In this document: one piece after another, positions 1 to 13,401 of the stretch
How positions within the stretch are numbered: position 1 is the stretch's first letter
Layout of the letters: each line of letters opens with the position of its first letter
DNA from: a virus
Taxonomy: Duplodnaviria; Heunggongvirae; Uroviricota; Caudoviricetes
Length of the DNA: 13,401 bases
Virus record (IMG/VR): IMGVR_UViG_2737471844_000004
Span: 1-13,401 of that record
Reading direction: 5' to 3' (one strand)
Program-made: the position numbers and the translations under genes
The notes under the pieces: generated by a model
Told to the model about the DNA's origin: nothing
Seen by the model: the letters and a program-made list of their open reading frames with translations, nothing else
The model's database searches: none

Positions 1-51
1 ATGTGTTGTAAAATCAGTCGAAGCCTAACAAGTGTGAATGACCTTTTAACC

Positions 52-762
52 ATGACGCAAGTGTTCAATGTTTACTGTGATGAGTCCTGCCATTTAGAAA
101 ATGATGGTCAAAAAGCAATGGTGCTCGGGGCTGTTTGGTGTCCTCTCAATAAGAGGTTTGGTATTGCTAATCGAATACGAGAGATAAAGCTCAAACATGG
201 CTTGGACCCACGTTTTGAAGTCAAATGGACTAAGGTTGGGGCTTCTAAAATTGAGTTTTATAAAGATTTGGTGGATTACTTCTTTGATGATGATGATCTT
301 CATTTCCGGGGATTGGTTATTCCTGACAAAACTCAGCTAAAGCATGATGATTTCGATCAAAGTCATGATGACTGGTACTATAAAATGTATTTTGTCATGT
401 TGAAAACTATTTTTGAGCCAGGAAGTCAATATAGAGTCTTTATTGATATAAAAGATACTCTTGGTCATGAGAAAATACTCAAGTTACATGATGTATTATG
501 TAACAATGCATATGATTTCTCTAGGAAAACAATTTCTAATATTAAGAGAATTAATTCTCATGAAGCTGAGCAATTGCAACTTGCTGATTTATTAATAGGT
601 GCCCTTAGTTATATGCATAGAGGTTTAAATGAAAGTAAGCCAAAACTTTTATTAATTAACAGGATCAGAGAAAGGAGCGGCTATAATCTAACCCAAAATA
701 CTTTGCTTCGAGAGTTAAAGTTTAATCTAATGATCTGGCAATCTAATGGGGGATGTCGATGA
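52..762 (+). CDS. DUF3800-like protein (family call from motif memory); start could instead be ATG at 1
   Basis: ORF 1..762; N-terminal MTQVFNVYCDES and later QLQLADLLIGALSY match the two motifs I recall for DUF3800 (N-terminal DES, C-terminal QxADxL). AT-rich. Stop TGA 760-762 overlaps next start (ATGA). Confidence 0.65.
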   Translation: MTQVFNVYCDESCHLENDGQKAMVLGAVWCPLNKRFGIANRIREIKLKHGLDPRFEVKWTKVGASKIEFYKDLVDYFFDDDDLHFRGLVIPDKTQLKHDDFDQSHDDWYYKMYFVMLKTIFEPGSQYRVFIDIKDTLGHEKILKLHDVLCNNAYDFSRKTISNIKRINSHEAEQLQLADLLIGALSYMHRGLNESKPKLLLINRIRERSGYNLTQNTLLRELKFNLMIWQSNGGCR

Positions 763-1244
763 GTCCGGTTTGGCTACCCGAGCAAATTTTATTAGAACAC
801 TATCAAGGTGAGTGGGAGGCCTACTTTGATAGTGTTTATCAAGCATTCCACCGCGATTTCGTTTTATCTAAACCAGTTTTTCGTGGCGTTCGATTAGGAT
901 TGAAACGTCATCCAGAATATGAAGGTAAATCAGCCACATTCTGGCATATGATTAGCACTGGAAATGTAGAAAGTGAGAGAGTGCCGGATATTCGGCGCTG
1001 CGAAAGAATTAGTTGGCCTAAGCCTGTTATAGATAATAGTACCGATACCTGTTTGAAAGTCTGGGCTGAGCCCAAAGGTAAAAATAGACGTATCCACATT
1101 TGGTTTGAGGATGAGGGATATCTGGTGGTTTTAGATGATAGAGGCGATTTTATGCTTCCATGGACAGCGTTTTATATTGAACATAACCATCAACGAAAGA
1201 AATACAATAAGAGATGGGAAAGACACAATCATAACGGTATTTGA
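759..1244 (+). CDS. Hypothetical protein, translationally coupled partner of the DUF3800-like gene
   Basis: ORF 753..1244; ATG at 759 has GGGGGA 6 nt upstream and overlaps the upstream stop. No recognisable motif. AT-rich like its partner. Confidence 0.6.
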   Translation: MSPVWLPEQILLEHYQGEWEAYFDSVYQAFHRDFVLSKPVFRGVRLGLKRHPEYEGKSATFWHMISTGNVESERVPDIRRCERISWPKPVIDNSTDTCLKVWAEPKGKNRRIHIWFEDEGYLVVLDDRGDFMLPWTAFYIEHNHQRKKYNKRWERHNHNGI

Positions 1245-4270: not shown

Positions 4271-4313
4271 CTGCAAAAATAAAACCCGCAACACTTCTGG
4301 CTGCGGGTTTTTT
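4271..4313. terminator. Bidirectional rho-independent terminator
   Basis: AACCCGCA-(11 nt loop)-TGCGGGTT at 4283-4309, flanked by an A-run (4271-4282) on one side and a T-run (4308-4313) on the other, so it has a U-tract on either strand. Confidence 0.7.
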
Positions 4314-4321
4314 ACTGGCAC

Positions 4322-4345
4322 AAAAAAGCCGGGAAAAATCCCGGC
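4322..4345 (-). terminator. Intrinsic terminator directly after the PerC-like gene
   Basis: GCCGGG-aaaaat-CCCGGC at 4328-4345, preceded on the plus strand by A6 (4322-4327), which gives a U-run on the minus-strand transcript. Sits 6 nt past the stop at 4351. Confidence 0.65.
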
Positions 4346-4350
4346 CTCCG

Positions 4351-4638
4351 TCACTGACTGCAATTTTTCGATCCAGGGTATTTCCTGAATGCCTTACCAT
4401 TGGGCTGATGTAATCCCATCCCGGCATGTGCCCGGCTGATGGTTTCGCGCATCTCCCCGAAATTATCCTGCCGTGCTGGTGGGCGTGCTGCCTTGCGGAT
4501 ACATTCCGCGCGACGTTTTGCCGCCTGTTCCCGTGCCTTGTCATCATTCGCCAGCATGATGACCTCAGCCCACCGCGCCGCCGCTCTCCGGTACAGACCA
4601 CGCGCTTCCAGTGCTTCCGCTTTGCTGTCGTGAATCAT
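4351..4638 (-). CDS. PerC-family-like transcriptional regulator
   Basis: ORF 4351..4638. N-terminus MIHDSKAEALEARGLYRRAAARWAEV and KRRAECIRKA match the PerC/Pch signature as I recall it. Start ATG overlaps the FinO-like stop (ATGA). Confidence 0.6.
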   Translation of the reverse strand: MIHDSKAEALEARGLYRRAAARWAEVIMLANDDKAREQAAKRRAECIRKAARPPARQDNFGEMRETISRAHAGMGLHQPNGKAFRKYPGSKNCSQ

Positions 4639-5231
4639 GCGCCTGTTTTCTCCTTTGCTGCCCGGCGCTGACGTTTGCGCTTCTCATTCAGCGCCACCAG
4701 CCGCGTTTCTGCGTCCTGTTGTTCCTGTGGTGTCACCTCGCCGCACGGCTGGCCTTTCAGGTCGTAGCGTACCCCACCAGCCATTAAGGCGCGGTAATAG
4801 CGCGGACACTGCGCATAAGATGCCAGCGTCGCACGTAATGCCCCTGGCCCGAATGCCAGCCCCCTGACGGCGAGATCCTGCATCAGGTCGTCGAATATCC
4901 CCACCTTAAGCGGCTTCGGTGCTTCCCGGCTGAATAATTCAGGCCACAACTCAGTGAGGCGGTTAATGCGCCTGCGGTTTTTTCGCTGCCGTTTGGTCAT
5001 ATGCCGCCACGGTGTCGCCCCTGTGGGCTTCTGCTGCGCTTTCTGGTTACCGGGCATCACTTTATGCGCCGATGTGGTTTTATCCTGCTGCTGCTGCTGC
5101 TGCTGCTGCTGCGCCGCCTGCGTCGTTTTCTGCGGCGTGCCGTAAATGCCTTTCGGTTTTCTGTTAATAGTCAGCTTAGTCATGCTTTGCCCCATCGTTT
5201 TTACTGATTGTTTCATATCCGGTACTTTCAT
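4635..5231 (-). CDS. FinO/ProQ-domain RNA-binding protein with N-terminal poly-Q tract; start codon uncertain
   Basis: ORF 4635..5231. LWPELFSREAPKPLKVGIFDDLMQDL ... YDLKGQPCGEVTPQEQQDAETRL parallels the ProQ N-terminal/FinO domain. Q9 run encoded by the repeat at 5086-5112. No clear SD at the first ATG; internal ATGs are possible starts. Confidence 0.7.
   Translation of the reverse strand: MKVPDMKQSVKTMGQSMTKLTINRKPKGIYGTPQKTTQAAQQQQQQQQQDKTTSAHKVMPGNQKAQQKPTGATPWRHMTKRQRKNRRRINRLTELWPELFSREAPKPLKVGIFDDLMQDLAVRGLAFGPGALRATLASYAQCPRYYRALMAGGVRYDLKGQPCGEVTPQEQQDAETRLVALNEKRKRQRRAAKEKTGA
5086..5112. repeat. Perfect (CTG)9 / (CAG)9 trinucleotide repeat, in frame within the FinO-like CDS
   Basis: Plus strand reads CTG nine times from 5086 to 5112. 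Confidence 0.95.
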
Positions 5232-5236
5232 CTTCT

Positions 5237-5522
5237 GGGTAGAGGGGTAGACGGCGGGTAGATAACAAAAAATAGTCCTCTACCCACTTAACTTAATGAA
5301 AAAAAACAACTTTCACACATTAGGTAGAGGGGTAGACCGTAAAATAGAAAAGTTTGAAACTTACTTTCTTACAATCTGTGTTTTCCTCTCGCTGTATAAA
5401 AAGTTTTTTGAGCGGGGATGTTGTCTACCCCTCTACCCACTTCTCTGAAAGCCTTGTGCTACGAGGGATTCAGCGGGTAGACAATAAAAAATCACCATCT
5501 ACCCTGTGTCTACCCATCTACC
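5237..5522. repeat. Iteron cluster flanking AT-rich spacers; candidate replication origin
   Basis: About 12 copies of GGTAGA(N)/TCTACC in both orientations (5237-5264, 5277-5287, 5321-5338, 5423-5440, 5473-5483, 5497-5522), including the inverted pair AGGTAGAGGGGTAGAC / GTCTACCCCTCTACCC around an AT-rich core. Immediately 3' of the primase-helicase gene. Confidence 0.65.
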
Positions 5523-5539
5523 TGTTACGGGTATTACTC

Positions 5540-7288
5540 TTATAAAAATTCCTCGGTTCTCTCCGTTTGTATAACGTTGGTTTGTATTCGTCCTTTAAAA
5601 CCTCTTGTCAGGTATTCAGCCCCATATTCTCTTGCTGCTGACTTCATGGCCTTACCAAAATCACCGACACTTAATATTTCTTCTTCCCCCATATACTCCA
5701 TAAAGGCGAGATATAGTCTGTACAGGCTTGTACGCGGATTAAGATCAGTTAATCTCTTACCGCCTCCCATCATCATCCCATGCGGTTCATCAAGAAATGC
5801 AAGCGCCGCACATAACCCAATGACAGGATCAGTTTCCTGTTTTATTTTCAGAGCTTCGGCACCGTCGCGCTGCTCCAACAATAATTCCCGTGCTTTTTCT
5901 GGATCGGAAAAGTTAGCCAGTAATCGACGAATAATGACAGGTATTTCCGCCGCTATCTTTTGCGGTAACTCTTTATCCTTTTCGGTCTCCCTTACAATAT
6001 TATCGAACCGAAAAATTACACGTCGACGCGCAACGCCTCCGGCCCGTTCGGTGAATGTCATCGGCACGTTATTTGTTGCCAGCACGACGGACCTGATAAT
6101 TGTTGTGAAACGCTTTTCATATTTCGGGTTAATTTCAACTGGATCTCCACCCGTTATTTTTTTGATGCCGGATCCTTCACCTGTATATTTCGGCTGGTCT
6201 GCCAGGACAATAAGACGACTTCCGACAACCTGCGCACGCCCGCCAGCATCATCAAGCGATGTCATTTCAGCGCTTACCGTGTTCTGTTTCCCTGCCAGAA
6301 GGGTGGCTATGTGCGTGATTGTGCTCTTGCCGCTCCCGCCTTCCCCTGTGGCCTCAATAAACATCTGCCAGTCGTACCGGTTCGCCATAATCATGTACAG
6401 CGCGGCGCATATACGCATCATCTTTCGCGGGTCTTTTCCTGCGGCGTGATCAAGCCATTTATGAAAGTTTGGCGCGTTGTCGCGGATGTTCTCCCCTGGT
6501 ACTGGTGGCGTGTACTCAATGCCGTTATGCGTGGTGATCCAGTTATCCGGCGAGTGCGGGGAAAATTCGCCAGTTTTCATGTCAAGCACGCCATTAGAGA
6601 ACGGCAATAAATCACCTGACGGTTCCCCCATTGGCCTGGCCATAACTTTTAAAGCATCCACAGCATTACTTATTGCTCTCCGACTAAACGATGTTCCGTT
6701 TTCTTCGTAAATAGCCACCATTTCACGACTAAGATCCAGTGTGCTTACCGGAACCCAAAAATCATCGCGCCAGACGTGGACAACCTCACTCTCCTGATTC
6801 ATTGCTACATCCTGAAATCGTTCAGCTAAAAGTTTTGCCCTTTGGCTGTCCGCCATTCTGGAAAGAGATATTTTGTGTTTTTTCTCGGTCCTTCCTGACA
6901 GAATTTCTCCGCGCTCAGCCTGTTCGCGGATCCGTTGCAGGTAGTCGCGCCAGTTCTCCGGTTCCTGGTCGGTGATGCCTTTGTATAATTTCGCCTCCTG
7001 TACGCCAGCCAGCGCCAGCTTTTCAGCGATAGTATTGATCTGGATTGGCTCTATCTCCCCCGCGATATAGACACGCGCAAAACGGCGTTTCTCGTCAATA
7101 ATGCGGATATTCGCCAGGTCTGCCAGTTGCTTTGGCCCCAGGTAAACAGGAGGCACGTTATCGCCGTGTTTTCGTCCTTCACTTTCAATCCAGTGTTGAG
7201 CATGGGCGTAAGCATCCGTCCCGGCAAAAATGATTACCTCAGTGAATTTATCCTTCGGCTGATATTTTAGACTCGGTGCGTTTTTCAC
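5540..7288 (-). CDS. Primase / SF3 (D5-like) helicase replication initiator, P4 alpha-like
   Basis: ORF 5540..7288, 582 aa. Walker A GEGGSGKST, Walker B-like LIVLAD, motif C VLATNN. GTG start overlaps upstream stop (GTGA) with GGGAGG 6 nt upstream. Confidence 0.85.
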   Translation of the reverse strand: MKNAPSLKYQPKDKFTEVIIFAGTDAYAHAQHWIESEGRKHGDNVPPVYLGPKQLADLANIRIIDEKRRFARVYIAGEIEPIQINTIAEKLALAGVQEAKLYKGITDQEPENWRDYLQRIREQAERGEILSGRTEKKHKISLSRMADSQRAKLLAERFQDVAMNQESEVVHVWRDDFWVPVSTLDLSREMVAIYEENGTSFSRRAISNAVDALKVMARPMGEPSGDLLPFSNGVLDMKTGEFSPHSPDNWITTHNGIEYTPPVPGENIRDNAPNFHKWLDHAAGKDPRKMMRICAALYMIMANRYDWQMFIEATGEGGSGKSTITHIATLLAGKQNTVSAEMTSLDDAGGRAQVVGSRLIVLADQPKYTGEGSGIKKITGGDPVEINPKYEKRFTTIIRSVVLATNNVPMTFTERAGGVARRRVIFRFDNIVRETEKDKELPQKIAAEIPVIIRRLLANFSDPEKARELLLEQRDGAEALKIKQETDPVIGLCAALAFLDEPHGMMMGGGKRLTDLNPRTSLYRLYLAFMEYMGEEEILSVGDFGKAMKSAAREYGAEYLTRGFKGRIQTNVIQTERTEEFL

Positions 7289-7575
7289 TTCTTACCTCCC
7301 GCAACCAACATTGCCCGGATTTTTTTTATATTCGTGGCTGCACGTCTCGCCACTGCCTGTTGTTTGTTTTCCACCAGAATAAAATCACGATCAAACTGAC
7401 GGCGCGGCATTACGCAGTCATATTCGTAAGCCTCACGGCGGTAGGTGATATTGCCTGGCGTAACGTGACGAATAACCACCCGTCCCCCGCGTCTGGTGTC
7501 CCGGAAAATATCACCGGGGCGGATTTCAGGCCGAGAGAGGCCGCTGGCAGTAAAGCCAGAATTTTTCTTTTTCAT
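7285..7575 (-). CDS. Hypothetical basic protein (96 aa)
   Basis: ORF 7285..7575; ATG 4 nt after the upstream stop; coupled to the primase gene. Confidence 0.6.
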   Translation of the reverse strand: MKKKNSGFTASGLSRPEIRPGDIFRDTRRGGRVVIRHVTPGNITYRREAYEYDCVMPRRQFDRDFILVENKQQAVARRAATNIKKIRAMLVAGGKK

Positions 7576-8364: not shown

Positions 8365-8581
8365 GGTGCACCTCCTGCACATCAGCCATGATAATTTTTC
8401 CGGCCTTATCCAGTGCCTGATCGGCTTTTAGCTGCACAAATGCTAAATAATGGGAGATGCATTCTGATTCTCTGGCTGCGTGTTTATGCGCCACACCAGC
8501 GATAGCAGAAATCTCAATAAGTGAATCCATCAGCGTTTTGATAGCGTCTACCGCTGCATCAGGCCATGTTGCATTACACAT
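8357..8581 (-). CDS. Small hypothetical protein (74 aa)
   Basis: ORF 8357..8581; AGGAGGTGG SD; start ATGTGTAA overlaps upstream stop by 8 nt. Confidence 0.6.
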   Translation of the reverse strand: MCNATWPDAAVDAIKTLMDSLIEISAIAGVAHKHAARESECISHYLAFVQLKADQALDKAGKIIMADVQEVHHA

Positions 8582-8939
8582 GTTCCACCTCCTGGCGAAT
8601 ACGGGCGGCGAATACCATCACGCAGCCATCAGGAGATTGCTGACGTGCTTCCTGTTCGCTGGTGGCCTCGATGTGAATTACGCGCGGTTGTGCCGTGCTC
8701 AGGGCGATAAAACGCCAGATAAAATTGTTCTCGCATTTCTGAATAAACAGCGTGTTTTCTTCGCGCCCTTTCCATGTTGCCGAGATATAGCCCATGTCAT
8801 TGAGCATCTCGCAGGCATCAACCAGCGTATCAGCAGCTACGTGTACAGTGTTTTTACCGTCAGCTATGCAATCACGGTGCACCGCCAGGAAGGTGTATAT
8901 AAATTTAGGGTGAGTTTGGGTATGCTGTGTTCCAGCCAT
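8574..8939 (-). CDS. Hypothetical protein (121 aa), first gene of the leftward operon
   Basis: Internal ATG (plus 8937-8939) of the long minus-strand open frame, with GAGGT 7 nt upstream and a promoter/operator region immediately 5'. Natural-looking sequence MAGTQHTQTHPKFIYTF... Confidence 0.6.
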   Translation of the reverse strand: MAGTQHTQTHPKFIYTFLAVHRDCIADGKNTVHVAADTLVDACEMLNDMGYISATWKGREENTLFIQKCENNFIWRFIALSTAQPRVIHIEATSEQEARQQSPDGCVMVFAARIRQEVEHV

Positions 8940-9028
8940 AATCGTTACCTCATTTAACGGTTTGGTTAGACGCCCCGCTACTGCCGCAAACAGTTCGGGG
9001 CGTTGTCGTTTACATCCTCTTACTGAGG

Positions 9029-9104
9029 TGTGATTTAAATTAAATTTAACTGAATCACAGGTCAAGTATTTTTTGTGATTCTTTTTTGTGTATACTGAAT
9101 CACA
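9029..9104. promoter_or_regulatory. Divergent promoter region with two TGTGATT-N17-AATCACA operator-like palindromes
   Basis: Palindromes at 9029-9059 and 9074-9104. Plus-strand -10-like TATACT at 9091-9096 lies inside the second; minus-strand -35 TTGACC (9060-9065) and -10 TAATTT (9037-9042) overlap the first. Confidence 0.55.
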
Positions 9105-9126
9105 TCTTTTGTTTAGGAGAATGCAC

Positions 9127-9432
9127 ATGGCAAAAAACACTATCAACGACAAATCAAAACAGATTTCAATTCGTATCCCACATGATGCTTTTGAAGGCAT
9201 GGAATCCGTAAAACTGGACGGTGAAAGCAACGCCGGATTCATAGTAACCGCCATGCGCGGTGAGATCGCCCGCCGCCAGGCAGAAGGAAGCGGAGAAAAT
9301 CCCCTGGTTTCTTCGCTCGATGCGCTGGCGCAGGTGGAAAAAATCGGAGTCAAAGCTGCCGAGGAGATCGGGCAGCTCGTCACCGTCGCACGTGAAGAAC
9401 TCCAGCGCCGCAAGGCCAAAGAATCAGAATAA
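9127..9432 (+). CDS. Small putative DNA-binding regulator (RHH-like); candidate island repressor
   Basis: ORF 9088..9432; ATG at 9127 with AGGAGA 6 nt upstream. Pattern ISIRIP (beta), HDAFEGMESVKL, NAGFIVTAMRGEIARR (helices). The only plus-strand gene in the backbone. Confidence 0.65.
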   Translation: MAKNTINDKSKQISIRIPHDAFEGMESVKLDGESNAGFIVTAMRGEIARRQAEGSGENPLVSSLDALAQVEKIGVKAAEEIGQLVTVAREELQRRKAKESE

Positions 9433-9667
9433 TAACTATCATCGCCGTGGTGTGAGGAACTCCGGCGCATTGCTTTACAGGTACACAGAATGACCAACAA
9501 AGAATCAACCAATACACCATCACCGGCACGGAAAAGACGGCGCAGAAAGATAGAGCACGAATCAGAAAGATTCGCGCCATGTGCTTTTGCCCTTGAGCAA
9601 TTCCTTAAAGAGTACAGGCGCACAAAAATGGGATCGCATACCTGGAAAACATCGCGGCATGGCAATG

Positions 9668-10106
9668 TTAAAGAGCATGAATAGCCCACCAGCAAGCCAG
9701 CACACTGATCACATTGCCCACCAGCCGCAAATCTGGCATTGTTGGCAATGTGTTCAAGTGTGTAGCTTTCCCACTGGTGGCCCTCTGCAGTCGCCTTTGT
9801 TTTATCCAGAACGAAATCAGACATCAGATTGATCAGCACCTGGTGACCTGACAAAATCGCATCAGTCACGCCACCAGCAAAATTTTTTGCTTTCCGGACA
9901 GCGTGGCCAACGGCATTTTGCAGCGAAATATTCTGCATTTCTGGCGTGCTGTAGTAACGGTGATCAGTGCCTTCACTCTGTGCGACCACAACGCTATAAT
10001 CTGCCTCGTAGACAGTAAGCAATATGGCGCAGTAGGCTATTCGTTCACAAAGGCGCTCCGGCAACGGGGCGCTTTCTCTTTTTGTAACGGTCAGAGCGTT
10101 ACACAT
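9668..10106 (-). CDS. Hypothetical ORF with well-defined 5' end but unresolved 3' end; possibly frameshifted
   Basis: ATG at 10106 overlaps the AntA-like stop by 8 nt (ATGTGTAA) and starts MCNA like the gene at 8581. First ~130 aa look protein-like, then Cys/Ser-rich junk; no in-frame stop until 8574. An alternate frame ends at plus 9668. Confidence 0.3.
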
Positions 10107-12147: not shown

Positions 12148-13401
12148 TTATTTATTAGATTGCGTGATGTCAGAACATATCATGTTTTCTAAATTCACCA
12201 GCAAATCAGTCCACTGTGCCAGCGCCGCTTTGCGCTCATCAAAATATTGATGGCGGTTATAAATGCCCTCTACGCCTTTTATGCGGTGGTTAAGGCATCG
12301 TTCAGCAACGATCGGGTCAACTCCCAATGCTGCTAAATGTGTTCGTGCTGTTCGCCGGAAGTCGTGAATTGTAAAGTTGGGGACGTTCGGCATTTCTGCT
12401 CTGACTTTTGCCAATGCAACAGGAAGGGTGCTTTCCTGGATGTGAGGGATCATTCTGTGCTGCATTTTTCTGGCAGGTAATACCCATGCGCTATTGCATG
12501 AAAATGTGTGCAATTCTCGCAACCATTCTATGGTCGCTGGTGGTAATGGTATGTCGATAGCATCGCCATTTTTAGTTCGTTGTTCTGGTAGATGCCAAAT
12601 CGCGCCATCTAAGTCGAATTCATCCCACCTGGCGGCGCATAACTCCATTTTTCTGACACACAATGCTAAGAGCAACTTAAAGGTTAATTCGTTCTGGCGG
12701 CTGAATCCTTTGGCTTTACGCATGGCCTGAAAAAATTGGATTAATTCGTCACGGTTCAGCCAGCGATCACGAGATAATTCTTTCCCACCAGCATCTGATA
12801 CTTCAAAAGCTGAGCAGGGGTTAACCTCCAAAGCAAGGCGTTTAATACCGTAGTCAAATATTCGACGTGTCCACCGAAGAACGTCAGTAGCAATTGTTGG
12901 AGCGCCTCTATCAACAATGCTTTTAAGCATGGCATCAATATGGCGTGGTTTTACATCTTCAACCTTCATGTGGCCTATGGCAGGATTTATGTCTTTATCA
13001 ATGCGCCTGCGGAGAATATCTGGGTGTTTCCATCGGGGAAGTATTTGCCGTGCAAAGTATTCGGCGGCAAGTTCAGAAACATGCAGCGCGTTTTTTTCAG
13101 CTTCTATTTTTGCCAGTGCTTCGGCTTTACGCTGCTGTTTTTCTGCGGCTACGTCATATCCCAAAGCAACTCGTGCGGAAAGTTCTTTTGCCAGTTCCCT
13201 GGCTTTTGATAACGATAATTCAGAATATGAACCAATAAGCATGGCACGAGATTTTCCTGCCAGTTTATATCGAAACCGCCATGTCGGGGATCTATCCACC
13301 TCTCTATACCGGAGATATAGCCCACCACCATCAGCACGACCTTCGAAATGTTCTCCGGCTTTTATCCATGCGCGGATCTGCATATCTGTGAGTTTTGGCA
13401 T
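12148..13401 (-). CDS. int: P4-type tyrosine integrase (site-specific recombinase)
   Basis: ORF 12148..13401, 417 aa. N-terminus MPKLTDMQIRAWIKAGEH...DGGGLYLRY and C-terminal HDFRRTARTHLAALG...ERCLNH...IYNRHQY carry the R...HxxR...Y catalytic signature. ATG sits exactly at the window edge. Confidence 0.95.
   Translation of the reverse strand: MPKLTDMQIRAWIKAGEHFEGRADGGGLYLRYREVDRSPTWRFRYKLAGKSRAMLIGSYSELSLSKARELAKELSARVALGYDVAAEKQQRKAEALAKIEAEKNALHVSELAAEYFARQILPRWKHPDILRRRIDKDINPAIGHMKVEDVKPRHIDAMLKSIVDRGAPTIATDVLRWTRRIFDYGIKRLALEVNPCSAFEVSDAGGKELSRDRWLNRDELIQFFQAMRKAKGFSRQNELTFKLLLALCVRKMELCAARWDEFDLDGAIWHLPEQRTKNGDAIDIPLPPATIEWLRELHTFSCNSAWVLPARKMQHRMIPHIQESTLPVALAKVRAEMPNVPNFTIHDFRRTARTHLAALGVDPIVAERCLNHRIKGVEGIYNRHQYFDERKAALAQWTDLLVNLENMICSDITQSNK

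What the first reader, a model, noticed from the sequence alone, without database searches (positions are those of the whole stretch)
4635..5231. FinO/ProQ-domain protein carrying a poly-Q tract encoded by a perfect (CAG)9 repeat
A satellite-encoded FinO-domain RNA chaperone could modulate host or helper RNAs. The N-terminal region contains nine consecutive glutamines from an uninterrupted trinucleotide repeat, a classic substrate for slipped-strand mispairing. Because the unit is 3 nt, length changes would alter poly-Q length without frameshifting.
Basis: partly seen in the sequence, partly recalled or inferred. Interest (0 to 1): 0.55.

Follow-up and report, generated by a model that had tools for sequence, protein, structure and literature searches.

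The report
Satellite FinO-domain protein, expanded poly-glutamine allele
This is a small RNA-binding (FinO/ProQ-type) protein gene on an E. coli phage-satellite island, already annotated as such; a CAG repeat in its floppy N-terminal tail has recently grown from 3 to 9 copies, which is a real but rare and probably near-neutral length variant and not a switch.

Summary
Both parts of the finding hold. ORF 4635-5231 (-) contains a perfect (CAG)9 at 5085-5111, where shuffled sequence gives none. The protein matches Pfam ProQ/FinO (84 bits, cutoff 27). An AlphaFold model hits only FinO-domain structures, and the RNA 3'-end pocket residues (ProQ G37, Y70, R80) are conserved.

The window is identical to E. 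coli JUDM01000017.1. The 182-aa product, starting at 5183 rather than 5231, is RefSeq WP_047675802.1, "ProQ/FINO family protein".

The gene lies between the primase/iteron origin and a translationally coupled perC in a PICI-type satellite that shares its backbone with EcCICFT073.

Copy number does vary. Nearly all homologues have QEQ, QKQ or (CAG)3. These are about 320 complete E. coli genomes, 56 IMG/VR loci and 120 protein clusters. One allele group carries (CAG)5, (CAG)6 (one substitution away from this gene) and (CAG)9. Another island expanded a 9-nt unit at the same spot.

The tract sits in a low-confidence (pLDDT below 50), indel-tolerant segment upstream of the basic helix and FinO domain. 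It cannot shift the frame, so I read it as a slippage-derived, probably near-neutral length polymorphism.

The RNA partner and the role of this island-restricted FinO clade are unknown. Interest is modest.

The parts
4635..5183 (-). Most likely coding sequence of the FinO/ProQ-domain protein (182 aa, MTKLTINRKPKG...). The open frame extends upstream to the ATG at 5231 (198 aa).
   Evidence: ORF list and translation. The exact 182-aa product is WP_047675802.1/KHJ07078.1, 'ProQ/FINO family protein'. Homologue N-termini and conservation begin at this Met.
5085..5111 (-). Perfect (CAG)9 encoding Q25-Q33 of the 182-aa protein (Q41-Q49 of the 198-aa ORF).
   Evidence: TRF result and exact pattern match with 0 expected by chance. 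The extra six codons are gaps in at least 95% of 83 aligned homologues. DNA alignment gives the allele series QEQ, Q5, Q6, Q9.
5013..5156 (-). Predicted disordered, Q/T/K-rich N-terminal segment (residues 10-57 of the 182-aa protein) that contains the repeat. It follows a conserved N-terminal motif, MTKLTINRKPKGIYG.
   Evidence: AlphaFold2 gives pLDDT below 50 for residues 10-51 and 55-57, with no secondary structure. Several indel sites occur among homologues.
4947..4994 (-). Arginine/lysine-rich helix (KRQRKNRRRINRL..., residues 64-79) immediately before the FinO domain.
   Evidence: Helix H64-79 has pLDDT around 90. R72, R75 and L76 are invariant in 38 homologues. Net charge of residues 57-76 is +9.
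4662..4979 (-). FinO/ProQ domain (Pfam PF04352, residues 85-190 of the 198-aa ORF), followed by a basic C-terminal helix (KRKRQRRAAKEK).
   Evidence: Pfam E=9e-24. PDB sequence hits 5nb9, 1dvo, 3mw6, 7rgu. Foldseek top hit 1dvo, E=1.7e-6, rmsd 2.0 Å. Y129, R139 and G95 align with ProQ Y70, R80 and G37 and are invariant or nearly invariant.
4351..4638 (-). PerC-family regulator gene. Its ATG overlaps the FinO gene's TGA (ATGA at 4635-4638), so the two are probably translationally coupled.
   Evidence: Pfam PerC E=2e-32. A PerC gene lies under or beside the match in all 40 listed E. coli genomes of the 311 that hold a match.
4281..4311 (-). Strong intrinsic-terminator hairpin (12-bp stem with a U tail) ending the finO-perC transcription unit. 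A second hairpin lies just upstream of it.
   Evidence: Terminator scan. The fold is -18.1 kcal/mol, and the tandem hairpins are also seen in EcCICFT073.
5236..5523 (.). Iteron array: 12 GGTAGA/TCTACC hexamers, with the 15-mer GGTAGAGGGGTAGAC in direct and inverted copies, around an AT-rich core. This is the probable satellite replication origin, directly upstream of the FinO gene.
   Evidence: Repeat finder. Hexamer count and GC profile. Its position after the primase gene matches the PICI origin organisation described in PMC6092414.
5540..7288 (-). P4-type primase/helicase (D5_N, DUF5906), the upstream gene of the same rightward operon.
   Evidence: Pfam and NCBIfam hits. 70% identical to the EcCICFT073 primase.

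Best explanation
The gene encodes a 182-aa FinO-domain RNA-binding protein. It belongs to a clade confined to PICI-type phage satellites of Escherichia and close relatives. It is transcribed with, and translationally coupled to, a PerC-family regulator, just downstream of the satellite's primase and iteron origin. By homology it should bind structured RNA 3' ends, meaning an intrinsic-terminator hairpin plus U tail. Binding would use the conserved Tyr/Arg concave pocket, with help from the flanking arginine-rich helix and basic C-terminal helix. This would protect one or a few satellite, helper-phage or host transcripts, or promote their pairing. That step is inferred, and no RNA partner was identified. 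The (CAG)9 tract is a recent replication-slippage expansion of an ancestral three-codon site. A G-to-C change turned CAG-GAG-CAG into a pure (CAG)3, which then grew to 5, 6 and 9 copies in one closely related allele group. Because the unit is 3 nt, only the length of a disordered N-terminal spacer changes. That spacer separates a conserved N-terminal motif from the basic helix and FinO domain. The expansion is most likely neutral or mildly modulatory. It is not an on/off contingency switch.
For: Domain identity: Pfam ProQ/FinO 84 bits against a cutoff of 27. phmmer to ProQ NTD, FinO, NMB1681 and RocC gives E=6e-12 to 1e-6. The AF2 model has pLDDT around 90 or above over residues 61-170, and its top 26 PDB hits are all FinO-domain proteins. 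ProQ G37, Y70 and R80 align with G95, Y129 and R139, which are invariant or nearly invariant in 38 homologues. Y70 and R80 are individually required for ProQ-RNA binding, and R80 contacts the RNA 3' end in the RocC/RocR co-crystal (PMC10168233).

Context: int, AlpA, AntA, Icd-like, DUF4222, primase, iterons, FinO, PerC. The backbone is shared with EcCICFT073. The ATGA overlap with perC is read directly from the sequence.

Slippage: a perfect 27-nt repeat. The allele series is QEQ/QKQ/Q3 (common), Q4, Q5, Q6 and Q9, all in frame. The Q9 gene differs from the Q6 gene of strain JNU by 1 substitution in 510 ungapped columns. Q5 and Q6 alleles are among its nearest relatives, at 1-8 differences, interleaved with QEQ alleles at 6-10. 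An independent expansion of a 9-nt unit, (ACGCAGGCG)x4, occurs at the same site in another island.

Neutrality: the tract lies in a pLDDT<50 segment with several other indels. Expanded alleles were seen at 2 of 366 matching places in 321 complete genomes (judged from the 60 top-ranked rows, where longer tracts rank first) and at 2 of 56 IMG/VR loci.
Against: No RNA ligand was found. Rfam gave only sub-threshold terminator-like hits in the window. No cis-antisense RNA candidate stood out in the promoter/terminator scan. The tandem terminators after perC are also present in the SSB-type island EcCICFT073, so they are not specific to FinO-type islands. RNA binding is inferred from homology only. 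The neutrality of tract length is an inference from rarity, predicted disorder and indel tolerance. In F-plasmid FinO the region N-terminal to the domain contributes to chaperone activity (my own knowledge, not checked here), so a spacer change could matter. Within-strain instability was not examined.
Confidence: 0.8

Rival explanations
1. Adaptive tuning knob. Poly-Q length is selected to modulate the chaperone, for example spacer length between the N-terminal motif and the RNA-binding core, self-association, or condensate formation. Slippage would then give the satellite rapidly evolvable RNA-regulatory strength.
For: Copy number is polymorphic among near-identical genes: Q5, Q6 and Q9 lie within 0-8 substitutions of each other. 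A second, different repeat expanded at the very same site in another island. The tract lies between a conserved N-terminal motif and the basic helix.
Against: More than 95% of homologues keep three codons, often interrupted (QEQ, QKQ, QER), which suppresses slippage. The segment is predicted disordered and tolerates other indels. The longest allele was seen only in this one protein sequence.
Confidence: 0.12
2. Classical contingency (phase-variation) locus. Repeat changes switch the protein, or the downstream coupled perC, on and off.
For: A perfect 9-unit simple-sequence repeat lies inside a coding region of a mobile element. perC translation is probably coupled to this ORF (ATGA overlap).
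Against: The unit is 3 nt, and every observed allele differs by a multiple of 3 and stays in frame. No frameshifted or truncated variant centred on the tract was seen among the 120 cluster representatives.
Confidence: 0.02
3. Assembly or sequencing artefact. The nine copies are a mis-assembly of a shorter tract.
For: The source is a draft assembly (JUDM01000017.1). No complete E. coli genome carries nine copies.
Against: The identical 182-aa protein is listed for six E. coli entries in UniRef100, and the contig is found in two samples. A 27-nt repeat is far shorter than a sequencing read. Intermediate Q5 and Q6 alleles exist in independent complete genomes and IMG/VR contigs.
Confidence: 0.03
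4. The protein serves satellite DNA replication rather than riboregulation, as a nucleic-acid-binding accessory at the origin. It would then be functionally analogous to the SSB that occupies the same slot in EcCICFT073.
For: It has the same position, between primase/origin and perC, as the SSB gene of EcCICFT073. It lies immediately next to the iterons. A Logan protein (P0051) looks like an SSB N-terminus fused to the FinO C-terminal part. FopA, a plasmid FinO-domain protein, controls replication through an antisense RNA (PMC9977716).
Against: The RNA 3'-end pocket residues are strictly conserved. All characterised family members bind RNA (PMC9977716). Positional replacement in a mosaic island is weak evidence of shared function.
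Confidence: 0.1

Closest known systems
FinO (F-like plasmid fertility inhibition protein; PDB 1DVO)
   Same: Same domain and fold: best Foldseek hit, rmsd 2.0 Å over 102 columns, and phmmer E=3.5e-10. Similar size (182 against 186 aa). Both have a basic N-terminal extension leading into the domain and a C-terminal helix. Both are encoded on a mobile element.
   Different: Only about 33% identical over the domain. It scores 64 bits against the 136-bit cutoff of NCBIfam PRK13754, so it is not a FinO orthologue. It sits on a chromosomal phage satellite, not a conjugative plasmid. No FinP/traJ-like antisense pair was identified here.
ProQ (enterobacterial global RNA chaperone; PDB 5NB9 N-terminal domain)
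   Same: The FinO domain gives the best sequence hit (E=6e-12). G37, Y70, R80, R58, K35, D82 and G85 are conserved in the alignment.
   Different: It scores 59 bits against the 127-bit cutoff of the ProQ equivalog model, and the match stops at profile position 120 of 205. It therefore lacks ProQ's linker and C-terminal Tudor-like domain. It is an accessory, island-borne paralogue found in only about 6% of complete E. coli genomes.
FopA, RocC and NMB1681 (other small or specialised FinO-domain proteins)
   Same: These are FinO-domain proteins with one or a few RNA partners that bind terminator hairpins. RocC and NMB1681 are strong structural matches, with TM-score normalised to the target up to 0.84. 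FopA is plasmid/phage-associated and stabilises a replication-control antisense RNA (PMC9977716).
   Different: No partner RNA is known for the satellite protein. Sequence identity is 26-30%. The genomic setting (PICI, coupled to perC) is different.
PICI satellites of the EcCICFT073 / O-island 51 (CP-933C) type
   Same: Same backbone and gene order: int, AlpA, YlcI/YnfO, Icd-like, DUF4222, P4-type primase, origin, one variable slot, perC, packaging genes (PMC6092414, PMC3378721). The DUF4222 protein is probably the RgdR family, judging by size and position.
   Different: In EcCICFT073 the slot before perC holds a hypothetical gene plus an SSB, not a FinO-domain gene. ProQ/FinO-like genes in PICIs have so far only been listed as annotations (PMC13612085). 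I found no functional study.
Simple-sequence contingency loci of bacteria
   Same: A perfect short tandem repeat inside a gene, with copy-number polymorphism among close relatives.
   Different: The unit is 3 nt, so there is no frameshift switching, and only the length of a disordered segment changes.

Membership tests
FinO/ProQ domain family (Pfam PF04352) | Significant match to the family HMM above the curated threshold | tested here: met
   PF04352 E=9.1e-24, 84 bits against a gathering score of 27. Residues 85-190 of the 198-aa ORF cover profile positions 4-108 of 109.
FinO/ProQ domain family (Pfam PF04352) | FinO-domain fold (helical bundle with a beta-hairpin forming a concave face) | tested here: met
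   The AF2 model has pLDDT around 90 or above for residues 61-170, with elements H96-107, H113-124, H127-135, E138-140, E146-149 and H152-181. The top 26 Foldseek PDB hits are FinO, NMB1681, RocC and Lpp1663, all at E<=7e-5 with probability 1.00. The next hit has E=1.7.
FinO/ProQ domain family (Pfam PF04352) | Conserved concave-pocket residues that hold the RNA 3' end (ProQ Y70 and R80, plus G37) | tested here: met
   Alignment to ProQ places Y129, R139 and G95 at these positions. Y129 and R139 are invariant and G95 is at least 90% conserved in 38 homologues. Their requirement for binding is documented in PMC10168233.
FinO/ProQ domain family (Pfam PF04352) | Binds structured RNA (terminator hairpin plus 3' tail) and acts as a chaperone or protector | not testable with these tools
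   This needs EMSA or CLIP. No Rfam family reached threshold in the window.
FinO sensu stricto (NCBIfam NF010317 / PRK13754) | Score above the curated subfamily cutoff | tested here: not met
   64.3 bits against a cutoff of 136. 30-41% identity to plasmid FinO and ProQ/FinO-family proteins, over residues 76-166 only.
ProQ orthologue (NCBIfam NF003434 equivalog) | Full-length match including the linker and C-terminal domain, above cutoff | tested here: not met
   58.7 bits against a cutoff of 127. Only profile positions 5-120 of 205 are matched, and the protein ends after the FinO domain and a short basic helix.
Simple-sequence contingency (phase-variation) locus | Perfect tandem repeat with copy-number polymorphism among close relatives | tested here: met
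   (CAG)9 here. (CAG)6 in JNU and L016, (CAG)5 in TUM9757 and L017, and (CAG)3 or interrupted tracts elsewhere.
Simple-sequence contingency (phase-variation) locus | Length change switches expression (frameshift or promoter spacing) | tested here: not met
   The unit is 3 nt and lies inside the CDS. All alleles remain in frame and full length.
Simple-sequence contingency (phase-variation) locus | Length heterogeneity within a single population | not testable with these tools
   No read data are available.
PICI-type phage satellite (Gram-negative, EcCICFT073-like) | int, alpA, pri/rep with an adjacent iteron origin, unidirectional operon, about 10-17 kb, no tail or lysis genes | tested here: met
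   The domains are present and the iterons lie at 5236-5523. The primase is 70% identical to that of the experimentally mobilised EcCICFT073 (PMC6092414). Most related IMG/VR contigs are 10-17 kb. Helper-dependent induction itself is not testable here.

The most novel reading that the evidence does not exclude
The FinO-domain protein is a satellite weapon or regulator. On helper-phage induction it would bind terminator-type RNAs of the helper or host, or the satellite's own finO-perC or replication transcripts, to redirect gene expression in the satellite's favour. The slippage-prone poly-Q/TQA site would act as an evolvable spacer that tunes this activity. That would be the first RNA-chaperone-based layer in satellite-helper conflict.
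Probability: 0.12. Interest if true: 0.65.

Novelty: new member of a known kind. Interest (0 to 1): 0.3.

Why it matters
FinO-domain proteins are one of the three major bacterial RNA-chaperone families. Their known mobile-element members (FinO, FopA) each control a key step of their element through one antisense RNA. A distinct, uncharacterised clade is fixed next to perC in a common family of E. coli phage satellites: about 6% of complete genomes carry it, and plasmid FinO proteins are no more than about 40% identical to it. This suggests satellites may also use RNA-level control, which has not been studied. The poly-Q allele is mainly a clean natural example of trinucleotide slippage in E. 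coli: a point change that purifies a (CAG)3, then growth to 5, 6 and 9 copies. It also marks a disordered site that tolerates insertions, which could be useful for tagging the protein. It does not by itself reveal a new mechanism.

Tried and rejected
1. Exact-pattern scans of metagenome contigs and genome contigs for the flank plus at least four CAG copies, to collect more expanded alleles. They returned only chance matches in unrelated high-GC organisms, with no FinO homologue by tblastn.

2. An Rfam scan of the whole window at E<=1, looking for a partner sRNA such as a C4/CI-type antisense RNA. It gave only three sub-threshold, terminator-like hits: ncr1175, anti-hemB and isrK.

3. The idea that the A-rich/U-rich terminator after perC is a FinO-specific ligand. 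An equivalent pair of terminators follows perC in EcCICFT073, which has an SSB instead of FinO, so this was dropped.

4. RgdR as a possible identity for this gene. RgdR is a 99-aa protein with an RGD motif, which probably corresponds to the DUF4222 gene at 7285-7575 and not to the FinO-like gene.

5. The 257-aa 'members' of protein cluster 1 are unrelated sequences, a clustering artefact, and were ignored.

6. PADLOC gave no hit for the FinO-like or PerC proteins, so there is no support for a known defence role.

7. Literature searches found PICI ProQ/FinO genes mentioned only as annotations, with no functional work.

8. ORFs on the plus strand across the repeat (poly-Leu, poly-Ala or poly-Cys readings, for example 5001-5207) were treated as spurious. 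The minus-strand frame carries the family match.

Full report
**Observation**

The minus-strand ORF 4635..5231 (198 aa) exists. Tandem Repeats Finder reports a period-3 array of 9.3 perfect copies at 5085-5112. The nine in-frame CAG codons are at 5085-5111 (-). None of 200 dinucleotide-preserving shuffles of the window gave a match, even allowing two mismatches. The translation contains nine consecutive glutamines.

**Source and start codon**

The window is identical to part of E. coli assembly GCA_000798595.1, contig JUDM01000017.1. The exact 198-aa and 186-aa products are not in the 15-billion-protein collection. The 182-aa product starting MTKLTINRKPKG (ATG at 5183) is present. It is WP_047675802.1/KHJ07078.1, 'ProQ/FINO family protein', and UniRef100 lists it for six E. 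coli entries. Of 120 cluster representatives, 83 were selected because they begin M-x(1-2)-L-[TS]-[IL], and family conservation starts at that methionine. The 48 nt upstream abut the origin iterons. I therefore take 4635..5183 as the likely CDS, in which the Q9 tract is residues 25-33.

**Domain identity**

- Pfam ProQ/FinO (PF04352) matches at E=9e-24 with 84 bits, against a gathering score of 27.
- NCBIfam's FinO subfamily model scores 64 bits (cutoff 136) and its ProQ equivalog model scores 59 bits (cutoff 127). The protein is therefore an orthologue of neither.
- phmmer against PDB sequences finds ProQ-NTD (6e-12), FinO (3.5e-10), NMB1681 and RocC.
- An AlphaFold2 model built on 38 homologues has pLDDT around 90 or above over residues 61-170. 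Its 26 best Foldseek PDB matches are all FinO-domain proteins, led by FinO 1DVO at rmsd 2.0 Å. The next hit has E=1.7.
- In the ProQ alignment, G95, Y129 and R139 correspond to ProQ G37, Y70 and R80. Y129 and R139 are invariant in the family alignment and G95 is nearly so.
- Y70 and R80 are individually indispensable for ProQ-RNA binding, and R80 contacts the RNA 3' end in the RocC/RocR structure (PMC10168233).

The ProQ part agrees with the PDB-chain alignment printed.

**Architecture**

- Residues 1-15 form a conserved motif, M-T-K-L-T-I-N-R-K-P-K-G-I-Y-G.
- Residues 10-51 and 55-57 have pLDDT below 50 and no predicted secondary structure. Residues 16-56 are about 90% Q/T/S/N/G/P/K/A.
- An arginine-rich helix spans residues 64-79. 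Net charge of residues 57-76 is +9.
- The FinO domain follows, then a long basic C-terminal helix.

The poly-Q tract lies in the disordered part. The six extra glutamines are gap columns in at least 95% of 83 aligned homologues. The same segment holds other indels, for example a four-residue insert (consensus QSRK) present in about half of the sequences.

**Genomic context**

Gene order on the minus strand is:
- integrase (12148-13401)
- a 260-aa protein of unknown function
- AlpA
- AntA
- a divergent YlcI/YnfO gene
- Icd-like gene
- several small ORFs
- DUF4222
- P4-type primase (5540-7288)
- an iteron array (5236-5523), with 12 GGTAGA/TCTACC hexamers around an AT-rich core
- the FinO-like gene
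- perC (4351-4638), whose ATG overlaps the FinO stop codon as ATGA
- tandem terminators
- a DUF2213/protease-like gene and a TerS-like HTH gene

The backbone is shared with EcCICFT073, an experimentally helper-mobilised PICI. Identities are primase 70%, Icd-like 74%, DUF4222 51% and PerC 53% (PMC6092414). The 'satellite-encoded' claim is therefore supported by homology. In EcCICFT073 the slot before perC holds a hypothetical gene and an SSB rather than a FinO-like gene.

**Distribution**

Homologues of at least 80% DNA identity occur in 311-321 of 5,426 complete E. coli genomes. All are on chromosomes. In all 40 rows listed, a PerC gene lies under or beside the match. On plasmids, tblastn finds only FinO-family genes with 30-41% identity over residues 76-166. 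One 80%-identical hit is a 4.8-Mb record that is evidently a chromosome. Among 50,697 phage records there are six weak hits. PHROGs has FinO-like families, all of unknown function. This is a distinct, island-restricted clade of the FinO family. A 2026 comparative-genomics paper lists ProQ/FinO-like and PerC genes in Enterobacter PICIs as annotations only (PMC13612085). I found no functional study.

- Among 120 protein-cluster representatives, the longest Q run is 0 in 25, 2 in 52, 3 in 42 and 4 in one.
- Among complete E. coli genomes, a 131-nt probe across the tract ranks three records above all others. These are JNU with (CAG)6, TUM9757 with (CAG)5, and Z1323HEC0477, which carries (ACGCAGGCG)x4 (TQA x4) at the same place. 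All other listed rows have the three-codon span.
- Among 56 IMG/VR loci the longest Q run is 2 in 35, 3 in 19, 5 in one and 6 in one.
- The DNA alignment shows that the common close allele is CAG-GAG-CAG. A pure (CAG)3 exists in related alleles. The expanded alleles are pure CAG.
- Excluding gapped columns, the Q9 gene differs from the JNU Q6 gene at 1 of 510 positions. It differs from the other Q5 and Q6 alleles at 5-8 positions. QEQ alleles are interleaved at 6-10 differences.

All length differences are multiples of three and every allele is full length. The pattern is what slippage on a purified trinucleotide tract predicts. Nine copies is the longest allele I found.

**Interpretation**

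Shown:
- a FinO-domain protein with an intact RNA 3'-end pocket
- a location on a PICI-type satellite, coupled to perC
- a polymorphic in-frame CAG tract in a low-confidence, indel-tolerant segment

Inferred:
- The protein binds terminator-type RNA structures, as all characterised family members do (PMC9977716).
- The expansion arose by replication slippage.
- The expansion is neutral or only mildly modulatory. This rests on its rarity (about 1-2% of alleles), its confinement to one allele group, and its position in a disordered spacer.

It is not a phase-variation switch, because no length change can shift the frame. A tuning-knob role cannot be excluded. In F-plasmid FinO the region N-terminal to the domain contributes to chaperone activity (my own knowledge, not checked here). 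A second repeat type has also expanded at the same site. The RNA partner is unknown. Rfam finds nothing above threshold. The terminators after perC are not specific to FinO-bearing islands.

**Verdict**

The finding is accurate but largely already captured by public annotation. The gene is a new, uncharacterised member of a known family in a known kind of element. The poly-Q tract is a rare slippage allele. Interest is modest at 0.3. The more interesting open question is what a FinO-domain protein does for a phage satellite.

Noticed in passing
window 5236-5523: There are twelve GGTAGA/TCTACC hexamers here. The 15-mer GGTAGAGGGGTAGAC occurs at 5238 and 5323, with its inverted copy at 5423, and the array flanks an AT-rich core of about 30-40% GC. 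It lies between the primase gene and the FinO gene and is probably the satellite's iteron-type replication origin.
   Followed up: partly
window 1-762 (+) and 753-1244 (+): The DUF3800 protein and its overlapping partner match the PADLOC candidate anti-phage system PDC-M04, subunits A and B (E=8e-98 and 9e-74). The satellite therefore carries a candidate defence cassette at its accessory end. In strain JNU the same position holds an Orc1/Cdc6-family gene instead.
   Followed up: partly
L015 (E. coli CFT073, NC_004431.1 1384284-1385207): In the experimentally studied PICI EcCICFT073, the slot between the primase/origin and perC holds a hypothetical gene plus an SSB instead of the FinO-like gene. 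This looks like modular replacement of one nucleic-acid-binding protein by another.
   Followed up: partly
L003 3049-3606 (E. coli Z1323HEC0477): A different repeat has expanded at exactly the same site: (ACGCAGGCG)x4, giving TQA-TQA-TQA-TQA. The spot is a recurrent slippage site with more than one unit size.
   Followed up: yes
protein P0051 (Logan contig, 190 aa): This protein has an N-terminus that looks SSB-like to me (MTAQIAAYGRLVADPQ..., not tested) joined to the FinO-like C-terminal part from ...PGNQNAQQSRK onward. It may be a recombinant between the SSB-type and FinO-type island variants.
   Followed up: no
window 7285-7575 (-): The DUF4222 protein (96 aa...EIRPGDIFRD...) sits just before the primase. 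By size and position it probably belongs to the RgdR family, the O-island 51 regulator of type III secretion (PMC3378721). Here it has RPGD rather than the RGD motif.
   Followed up: no
window 4272-4345 (-): Two tandem intrinsic-terminator hairpins follow perC: GCCGGGA-TTTTT-CCCGGC-T6 and a 12-bp stem with A-rich and U-rich flanks. The arrangement is conserved in EcCICFT073. Weak sub-threshold Rfam hits (isrK, ncr1175) fall on it.
   Followed up: partly
window 8574-10106 (-): The 510-aa ORF listed here is an artefact of taking the first start codon. The annotated gene is the 121-aa Icd-like protein at 8574-8939. A divergent YlcI/YnfO gene lies at 9127-9432 (+), and the region between them is likely the island's regulatory switch.
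   Followed up: no
L012 6-356 and L013 9-356 (STEC005, ETEC1716): In some related islands an annotated hypothetical CDS of about 116 aa ends 8 nt inside the FinO gene's start, in the region upstream of the FinO gene, which in the window is the intergenic iteron region. I did not check whether this is a real gene or an over-call across the origin.
   Followed up: no
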